Assembly (NCBI RefSeq): GCF_964213995.1
Contig: NC_135814.1
Span: 75,206,001-75,270,000, forward strand
Origin: Mustelus asterias
Taxonomy: Eukaryota
Length of the DNA: 64,000 nucleotides
Reading direction: 5' to 3'
The position numbers and the translations under genes are program-made. The notes below the pieces were generated by a model that saw only the letters and a program-made list of their open reading frames with translations, was not told where the DNA came from and searched no databases. Below, one piece after another: positions 52,838 to 55,937 of the stretch (position 1 is the first letter of the stretch; the number at the start of each line of letters is the position of its first letter).

Positions 52838-52917
52838 CTCTTCCTTTGTTAAATGCTGTTCTCGCATTACATCCATGTAGGTTCTGGCATGGACCTTAGG
52901 ATCTGGTGTCTTTCCAC
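52838..52917 (-). CDS. SF3B1: SF3B1 exon 5 (80 nt)
   Basis: cag|GTGGAAAG...GAG|gtaatg; [27 protein letters not shown]. Confidence 0.95.
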
Positions 52918-53277
52918 CTGAGGGACAAAAATAGTGAGAATAGACCAGAAAAAAATTAGTGCAAATATAAGAAAAAAGACAACTTTATTTTATCTAGTTA
53001 CAATATTTTTGCATTAACAGTCTACATTTATTTTGGTTCAACTTTAAGTTTAAAATTGCTGACTTCTCAATTTTATATTTGTTCAAATCACAGCAACTTA
53101 CAGAGAAGCAACCCTGATGGTCAATTTAGCCTGCTTGAATACAAACAGTAATAATTACAACAATCTAAAAATAAATGCCTTAAGTGCAGTTATAAGCAAA
53201 TCATACGCAAGACATCAAAACACATTTAAGTGTCCATTATTGTTGGTTTTCCTTCGGTGATGTTCCGGAATACGTAC

Positions 53278-53333
53278 ACTGGCGGGCCTGTGTGTCCATC
53301 AGCAGTTCTGACTTCAAGCAGCAGAACAGAAGC
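53278..53333 (-). other. SF3B1: conserved poison / alternative terminal exon C in SF3B1 intron 4 (56 nt)
   Basis: tttctag|GCTTCTGTTCTGCTGCTTGA gives ...DPFAD-GFCSAA*, matching the recalled human short isoform end GFYSAA*; donor AGT|gtacgt; AATAAA downstream at 53032-53027. Confidence 0.8.
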
Positions 53334-53655
53334 CTAGAAAATTATCTCTTTACCATTAGTAACACTTTGGAAAGGGTTTTAAAATTCAAAACATCACACC
53401 TTGTGTTAGTTTTTAAAATCTCACTCAATATGTGTACTAACAAACTTCTTAGGAGAAAACAAGTTTTACCTGTTTAATATTAACCATATTAAAAAATAAT
53501 TGTAAATGCAACTATTTAAGCATAAAAAGTTACTTTTCAACAGGATACTTTTATTTGGGATTATGCTGTTTGGGTTTGTCTAAAACATGCTACACTGGCA
53601 GTGTCATACTGCCATTTTCATTGGACTTCCTTTTGGTTTACTTTTTCAGCATAAC

Positions 53656-53717
53656 CTACACACGATCTGTTGCACTGCACCCTTAAGAATGCAGACAGGA
53701 CTGTCATAGCAGTACTG
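53656..53717 (-). other. SF3B1: candidate poison cassette exon B in SF3B1 intron 4 (about 62 nt)
   Basis: TACTAAC (53747-53741), then pyrimidine tract and ctacag|cag tandem acceptor; reads AVLL* or VLL* after exon 4; donor TAG|gttatg is tentative. Confidence 0.5.
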
Positions 53718-54495
53718 CTGTAGGAAAGAAATTAAGGACAGTTAGTATGGGCCCGTGGAATTCCGGCAAACATATTTAGAGCAATTACAGTTACAAAAAT
53801 GTCAGTTTCTATCCGTGATAAAACATATATACTGTAGGTCTGATATCTCTTTCAATTAAACCTGCATGACTAGTTAAACTGAAAATGTACTACATCGAGC
53901 AAAAATTCCTATGTCACTGATAAATGTAAACTCAACCACCTGAAAAAAAACAAAACTTCCATCTGGCCCACTATGCCTCCCAGCAACAACCACATGCCTA
54001 GTAGCTAACTAACTACAATTAGAATTGTTTCTAAAAGGCCACTCCAAATTAATTCAGAGGATGGCAAGCTCCAACTTAGATTTGTGATAAAAACAGGAGC
54101 TTATGGAAATCTGTCTTTATCACAGAACTTGGAACAGCCAAATTCTCCTCTTTCCAAACATTTCCCTCTCTCCCGATTTCTTATGGAAACGCAAACTCTT
54201 GGAAAAATGGTTCCACAGGCATGACCTGTTGTACCACACTTGGGTGGCTATTTATCTGCACATGCGATTGATACGGAGGAAGGATAGGTGGGAGGTTGCT
54301 CAAAAGTCCACCCTGTTATCGTCCAATATTCACATATCTCACTTTTAGTGAGGCCAGTGAATAATGGCAGGAATAATGACCAACTTCTCCATTTTCTCTA
54401 TTGCAGGAGCACTGAGGTCAATGTTAAGAGTCCGACTCTGGCTCTGGCTAACATGGCAAAGATTGGAAATTTATCTAATGATCTACATAACTTAC

Positions 54496-55822: not shown

Positions 55823-55937
55823 CATCTGCAAATGGGTCATGGCGTTCAGGGGAAATAATCATCTGTCTCCTACGTGCTTTATACTCATCTTCCCGTTCCA
55901 CAATCCGCTGCGGTCGGTGTTCAGCAAATGGATCATA
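55823..55937 (-). CDS. SF3B1: SF3B1 exon 4 (115 nt)
   Basis: cag|TATGAT...GATG|gtaatt; YDPFAEHRP...[13 protein letters not shown]; ends in phase 1. Confidence 0.95.

What the first reader, a model, noticed from the sequence alone, without database searches (positions are those of the whole stretch)
53656..53750. Deep-intronic 3' splice site with a perfect yeast-type TACTAAC branch point and NAGNAG
Seen: ccaTACTAACtgtccttaatttctttcctaCAGCAGtactgctaTGA. The branch A is 24 nt from the first AG, and both AG choices hit the same in-frame TGA. Known: TACTAAC is the optimal U2 complement and is uncommon in vertebrate introns. Inference: a poison exon, or a decoy/detained-intron site that binds U2 snRNP on the SF3B1 transcript itself. 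The donor is uncertain.
Basis: partly seen in the sequence, partly recalled or inferred. Interest (0 to 1): 0.7.

Follow-up and report, generated by a model that had tools for sequence, protein, structure and literature searches.

The report
Known decoy exon in SF3B1 intron
This is the entry site of a tiny stop-carrying exon that matches one already described in the human gene for the splicing factor SF3B1, and it likely helps to throttle the gene by stalling or spoiling its splicing.

Summary
TACTAAC lies 24 nt before a CAGCAG acceptor; the heptamer alone is at chance level (7 vs 6.1 expected), the full acceptor layout is not (2 of 5000 shuffles).

The site is the orthologue of human cryptic/decoy exon E4d (Parra 2018): 62 of 67 columns identical by eye. 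This fixes the donor at 53680, giving a 37/34-nt exon with two in-frame stops. Counterparts of E4c, E4e and E4f flank it in order.

Most likely it is a minor decoy/poison exon: strong acceptor, very weak donor. In human cells E4e, not E4d, drives most retention.

Not found in my searches: a predicted 8-bp hairpin buries the donor, and by eye the exon is poison in fishes but in-frame (39 nt, no stop) in amniotes. No reads, lariats or branch-point conservation were seen. The scan earlier noted SF3B1 intron poison exons in two invertebrate genomes. Verdict: already known, low interest.

The parts
53741..53747 (-). Branch-point heptamer TACTAAC (putative branch A at 53742); a TAAY half-site lies 6 nt downstream (QKI-type bipartite layout)
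   Evidence: 6 of 6 Watson-Crick pairs with the recalled U2 motif; use as a branch is inferred
53721..53740 (-). Polypyrimidine tract, 80% C/T, predicted mostly unpaired (0.78)
53715..53720 (-). Tandem acceptor CAGCAG; exon starts at 53717 (matches the human 39-nt E4d start) or 53714
   Evidence: by-eye comparison with Fig S1 and Table S1 of PMC6097662
53681..53717 (-). E4d orthologue, 37 nt (34 from the second AG), frameshifting, in-frame TGA 53706-53704 and TAA 53685-53683
   Evidence: 62 of 67 columns identical to human by eye
53675..53680 (-). Weak donor GTGCAG (3 of 9 matches to the recalled consensus, lowest of the 10 donors scored)
   Evidence: position by homology
53675..53694 (-). Predicted 8-bp hairpin (53694-53687 with 53682-53675) that buries the donor; the TAA stop lies in the 4-nt loop
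   Evidence: pair probabilities 0.94-1.0 in three contexts; z -2.36 for a post hoc 33-nt window, not significant in three longer windows
53278..53333 (-). E4e orthologue, 56 nt, in-frame stop at nt 18; TACTAAT branch-like site 22 nt upstream (A at 53356)
   Evidence: 50 of 56 nt identical to human by eye
53940..53997 (-). E4c-like cassette, 58 nt (human 51), AG/GT intact, frameshifting
   Evidence: by-eye resemblance of the 3' half and donor to Fig S1
53102..53130 (-). E4f-like cassette, 29 nt as in human, donor GTAAGT, stop at nt 3
   Evidence: by-eye resemblance to Fig S1
55823..55937 (-). SF3B1 exon 4 (upstream partner, phase 1 donor)
52838..52917 (-). SF3B1 exon 5 (downstream partner); intron 4 is 2905 nt

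Best explanation
[quoted passage not shown] Shown: sequence match, order of the neighbouring cassettes, exon frame and stops. Inferred: the perfect branch point and open tract recruit SF1/U2AF and U2 snRNP well; the weak donor, predicted to be folded into a hairpin, recruits U1 poorly, so exon definition seldom completes. The engaged acceptor would compete for the exon 4 donor and, together with the stronger decoy E4e, slow removal of intron 4 (nuclear retention). Rare inclusion would give a stop four codons in and decay by NMD. The net effect would be less productive SF3B1 mRNA.
For: 62 of 67 columns match human E4d by eye, with the one 2-nt gap at the place where coelacanth and 13 of 13 decoded teleost rows have it. 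The 39-nt human length fits only first AG to this GT. E4c, E4e and E4f counterparts lie in the same order. Single copy in the genome. Best branch site of the 9 acceptors scored and weakest of 10 donors; donor least accessible of 8 (0.12 unpaired). Human data as reported in PMC6097662: junction reads for all six cassettes, U2AF1/2 cross-links to most in K562 and all six in HepG2 (not shown there), deletion of all six removes retention.
Against: No read, lariat or CLIP evidence for this species is in hand. In human cells single deletions had mild effects, constructs lacking E4a-d kept retention, and blocking the E4e donor alone cut retention from about 26% to about 3%, so E4d may add little. Fig S1 shows only 13 nt upstream of the AG, so conservation of the branch point itself was not seen. 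The hairpin is no more stable than shuffles in windows of 46, 63 and 121 nt (54, 157, 132 of 500) or 151 nt (z +0.48). All human comparisons are by eye on machine-extracted figure text.
Confidence: 0.75

Rival explanations
1. It is a conventional regulated poison cassette: included in some tissue or state and degraded by NMD, with no role in retention.
For: Both acceptors give an early in-frame stop, and the 37/34-nt length shifts the frame. The TAA is in frame in the decoded coelacanth row and 12 of 13 teleost rows by eye (platyfish has a change there). Human junction reads exist for E4d.
Against: By eye the amniote exon is 39 nt with no in-frame stop, yet almost invariant, so the stop is not what is conserved. 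E4d was not among the two cassettes visible in NMD-inhibited RNA-seq and RT-PCR. The donor is very weak.
Confidence: 0.12
2. The conserved unit is a protein-binding or structural platform (SF1/QKI competition at ACUAAY, plus the hairpin) that tunes the neighbouring decoy E4e, and the splice sites are incidental.
For: The E4d and E4e branch sites are both ACTAAY with a TAAY half-site 6 and 10 nt downstream. SF1 and QKI compete at ACUAA branch sites (PMC13004596).
Against: Enrichment is marginal: 139 of 3000 shuffles give two bipartite sites, 218 of 3000 give four cores, and 14 of 64 cores in the window have a half-site anyway. No paper linking QKI to SF3B1 intron 4 came up. Both splice sites are kept in all decoded rows.
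Confidence: 0.08
3. It is a chance motif or a known structured non-coding RNA unrelated to splicing.
For: The heptamer alone is at chance frequency.
Against: Composite layout in 2 of 5000 shuffles; close match to a human cassette with reported junction reads; no Rfam family at gathering score in the window.
Confidence: 0.03

Closest known systems
Human SF3B1 intron 4 cryptic/decoy exon E4d (Parra et al. 2018, PMC6097662)
   Same: Same gene, intron and order among cassettes; same tandem acceptor and donor; 62 of 67 columns identical by eye.
   Different: 37 nt with two in-frame stops here, against 39 nt and, by my reading, no in-frame stop in amniotes. The paper reports nothing that I found on its branch point or on a hairpin.
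Human SF3B1 decoy exon E4e (PMC6097662, PMC7373989)
   Same: Same intron and proposed decoy mode; its orthologue lies 347 nt downstream with a near-consensus branch site.
   Different: E4e is the strong, tested decoy; it has a poor tract (40% C/T) and a better donor here. E4d has the opposite profile.
SF3B3 poison exon with a stem-loop that hides its branch sites (PMC11162794)
   Same: A conserved structure next to a poison exon in an SF3b subunit gene.
   Different: There the branch site is hidden and the structure is validated by SHAPE and compensatory mutation; here the branch site is predicted open, the donor hidden, and nothing is validated.
[quoted passage not shown]
   Same: Deeply conserved non-productive cassette in a splicing-factor gene.
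   Different: SR poison exons have many, unusually weak branch points; this acceptor has one perfect consensus site.

Membership tests
SF3B1 intron 4 exon E4d | Lies in SF3B1 intron 4 | tested here: met
   exon 2 seen at about 57864-57689 supports the numbering.
SF3B1 intron 4 exon E4d | Sequence match to human E4d with both splice sites | tested here: met
   By eye, 62 of 67 columns, 3 substitutions, one 2-nt gap; no alignment program was run on the human sequence.
SF3B1 intron 4 exon E4d | Position between E4c and E4e | tested here: met
   E4c-like cassette ends 222 nt upstream, E4e starts 347 nt downstream.
Decoy exons (Parra 2018) | Cryptic cassette inside a large (>1 kb) intron | tested here: met
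   Intron 4 is 2905 nt; cassette has AG and GT.
Decoy exons (Parra 2018) | The host intron is retained in this species | not tested
   No read-level result for this species is in hand; shown for human in PMC6097662.
Decoy exons (Parra 2018) | U2AF/U2 binding at the acceptor | not testable with these tools
   Reported for human cassettes by eCLIP; needs CLIP here.
Decoy exons (Parra 2018) | Splice-site mutation or deletion lowers retention | not testable with these tools
   Human single deletions gave mild effects, E4e the largest.
Poison (AS-NMD) exons | Inclusion introduces an early in-frame stop with downstream junctions | tested here: met
   Stops at nt 12 and 33 (first AG) or 9 and 30 (second AG) of the insert.
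Poison (AS-NMD) exons | Inclusion isoform exists and rises on NMD block | not tested
   No expression data for this species; in human only rare junction reads.
Known structured ncRNA (Rfam) | Match at gathering score | tested here: not met
   0 matches among 4227 families in the 64-kb window.

The most novel reading that the evidence does not exclude
E4d is a built-in U2 snRNP trap: a perfect, open branch point coupled to a donor locked in a conserved hairpin. Its coding outcome flipped from poison (37 nt, fishes) to in-frame (39 nt, amniotes) while the RNA stayed almost frozen, so selection acts on the stalled splicing complex and not on the stop. SF3B1 would then sense SF3b/U2 availability on its own transcript through this site.
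Probability: 0.25. Interest if true: 0.55.

Novelty: already known. Interest (0 to 1): 0.25.

Why it matters
SF3B1 dosage matters for all splicing and in myeloid cancers, and intron 4 retention is a published control point. The finding adds one more vertebrate to a known element. The useful extras are testable leads on why E4d, which did little in human reporter assays, is nearly invariant: a strong-acceptor/hidden-donor anatomy and an apparent switch of reading-frame outcome between fishes and amniotes.

Tried and rejected
TACTAAC frequency as evidence: rejected, chance level. Sequencing-run search: 23 runs listed, no RNA holder listed on record; not used for or against. No read-level result was obtained, so inclusion and retention in this species stay open. 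Global folding stability around the site: not above shuffles. Rfam: nothing. QKI-site enrichment: marginal, kept only as a rival. Alternative donors at 53655 (5 of 9) and 53469 (7 of 9) score better against the consensus but were set aside because only 53680 fits the human 39-nt length; they are not excluded as species-specific donors. The first script had exon 3 and 6 ends off by 1 and 3 nt; corrected, whose frames are the ones cited. Spotted gar and lamprey rows of the E4d panel could not be decoded and were left out; three rows (orangutan, Xenopus, Tetraodon) are blank. Literature searches for branch-point, lariat, hairpin or QKI data on this exon and for SF3B1 autoregulation (listing only) gave nothing specific. 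Earlier notes near this place: none.

Full report
Observation. The element is on the minus strand. TACTAAC occupies 53747-53741, the putative branch A is 53742, and an 80% pyrimidine tract leads to AG at 53719-53718 and AG at 53716-53715. Exon 6 translates to SF3B1 residues 165-222 (E 1.1e-23), exons 3-6 join without a stop, and the site lies in the 2905-nt intron between exon 4 (55937-55823) and exon 5 (52917-52838). The stretch is single-copy in the 3.68-Gb genome. The heptamer occurs 7 times in the window against 6.14 expected. Only this one of the 7 has an acceptor layout, which 2 of 5000 shuffles of intron 4 reproduce (criteria chosen after seeing the site).

Identity. Parra et al. 2018 (PMC6097662; I read parts 1-4 of 6 of the text, the machine-extracted text of all of Fig S1, and Table S1) describe six cryptic exons E4a-f in human SF3B1 intron 4, with E4d and E4e conserved to fish. 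The extracted figure rows come as mirror-reversed pieces; read that way, the human E4d row matches 53730-53666 at 62 of 67 columns, with 3 substitutions and one 2-nt gap. Coelacanth and 13 of 13 decoded teleost rows have the gap at the same place, which supports the decoding. The stated 39-nt length fits only the first AG and the GT that corresponds to 53680-53679, so the exon here is 37 nt (34 from the second AG). E4e has a 56-nt counterpart at 53333-53278 (50 of 56 identical by eye), and E4c-like and E4f-like cassettes flank them in order. These comparisons are by eye; no alignment program was run on the human sequence. Figure images (including E4d junction counts in Fig 1D) and Supplemental Table 2 could not be seen and may bear on which AG is used.

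Reading frame. Both acceptors give a TGA at 53706-53704 and a TAA at 53685-53683 in frame. The TGA depends on the single substitution inside the exon relative to human; the TAA is in frame in the decoded coelacanth row and 12 of 13 teleost rows. By my reading the amniote exon is 39 nt with no in-frame stop, whereas human E4c has one. The paper says all but E4c introduce stops, so either a label slipped there or my decoding errs; this needs a direct check.

Anatomy and mechanism. Of 9 acceptors scored, only the two E4d ones have a perfect branch site; exons 3-6 have 2-3 mismatches and E4e has one. The E4d donor matches 3 of 9 consensus positions, the lowest of 10 (consensus and U2 motif recalled). 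It is predicted to sit in an 8-bp hairpin with pair probabilities of 0.94-1.0 in three contexts and is the least accessible of 8 donors. The hairpin scores z -2.36 (16 of 500) only in a 33-nt window chosen afterwards, and not in longer windows. In the decoded Fig S1 rows the only change within the stem turns a U-G pair into C-G (13 teleosts, platypus; probably two events) and the platyfish change is in the loop. That is compatible but weak, since the panel barely varies, and the undecoded gar row may touch the stem. The inferred mechanism is strong acceptor engagement with poor exon definition: mostly stalled competition for the exon 4 donor, rarely inclusion and NMD.

Evidence against a large role. 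In human cells single-decoy deletions were mild, E4e was strongest, and constructs without E4a-d kept retention. Blocking the E4e donor cut retention from about 26% to about 3% (PMC7373989, passages). In mouse smooth muscle, Sf3b1 retention was higher where the protein was lower, which the authors read as not a response to high protein (PMC5062968, passages; intron not named in what I saw), so simple feedback is not established. Fig S1 shows 13 nt upstream of the acceptor, so conservation of the branch point is unseen. No reads or lariats from this species are in hand.

Rivals. A plain poison exon fits the stops but not the apparent in-frame amniote form. A QKI/SF1 switch fits the bipartite ACTAAY sites at E4d and E4e (PMC13004596, passages), but enrichment is marginal (139 of 3000). 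No Rfam family matches. For comparison, SR poison exons have many weak branch points (PMC5959240, passages) and SF3B3 hides its branch sites in a stem (PMC11162794, passages).

Novelty. The element is published. In eight searches (listings) and a term search of the preprint I found nothing on the E4d branch point, the donor hairpin or the frame difference; the library lacks most subscription papers. Earlier scan notes describe poison exons in the same SF3B1 intron of two invertebrate genomes (unchecked). Verdict: already known, interest 0.25.

Noticed in passing
window 53333-53278 (-): Orthologue of the main human decoy E4e, 56 nt, with a TACTAAT branch-like site at -22 and a poor pyrimidine tract (40%).
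   Followed up: partly
window 53997-53940 and 53130-53102 (-): E4c-like and E4f-like cassettes keep both splice sites, E4f with the human length of 29 nt, although the paper's text calls these two conserved only to reptiles.
   Followed up: partly
window 53718-53707: A perfect 12-nt palindrome spans the two acceptor AGs; one local fold pairs it as a short stem over the acceptor.
   Followed up: no
window about 55680-55600 (-): Short stretches that faintly resemble the human E4a/E4b region; not resolved.
   Followed up: no
window 53469 and 53655 (-): Two downstream GT sites score better than the E4d donor and could serve as alternative donors.
   Followed up: no
window about 63370-62860 (-): Degenerate tandem array with a unit of roughly 50 nt upstream of exon 2, seen by eye.
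   Followed up: no
window about 62450-62110, 59660-59380, 57500-57200 (-): Three similar copies of a short interspersed repeat in introns 1 and 2, seen by eye.
   Followed up: no
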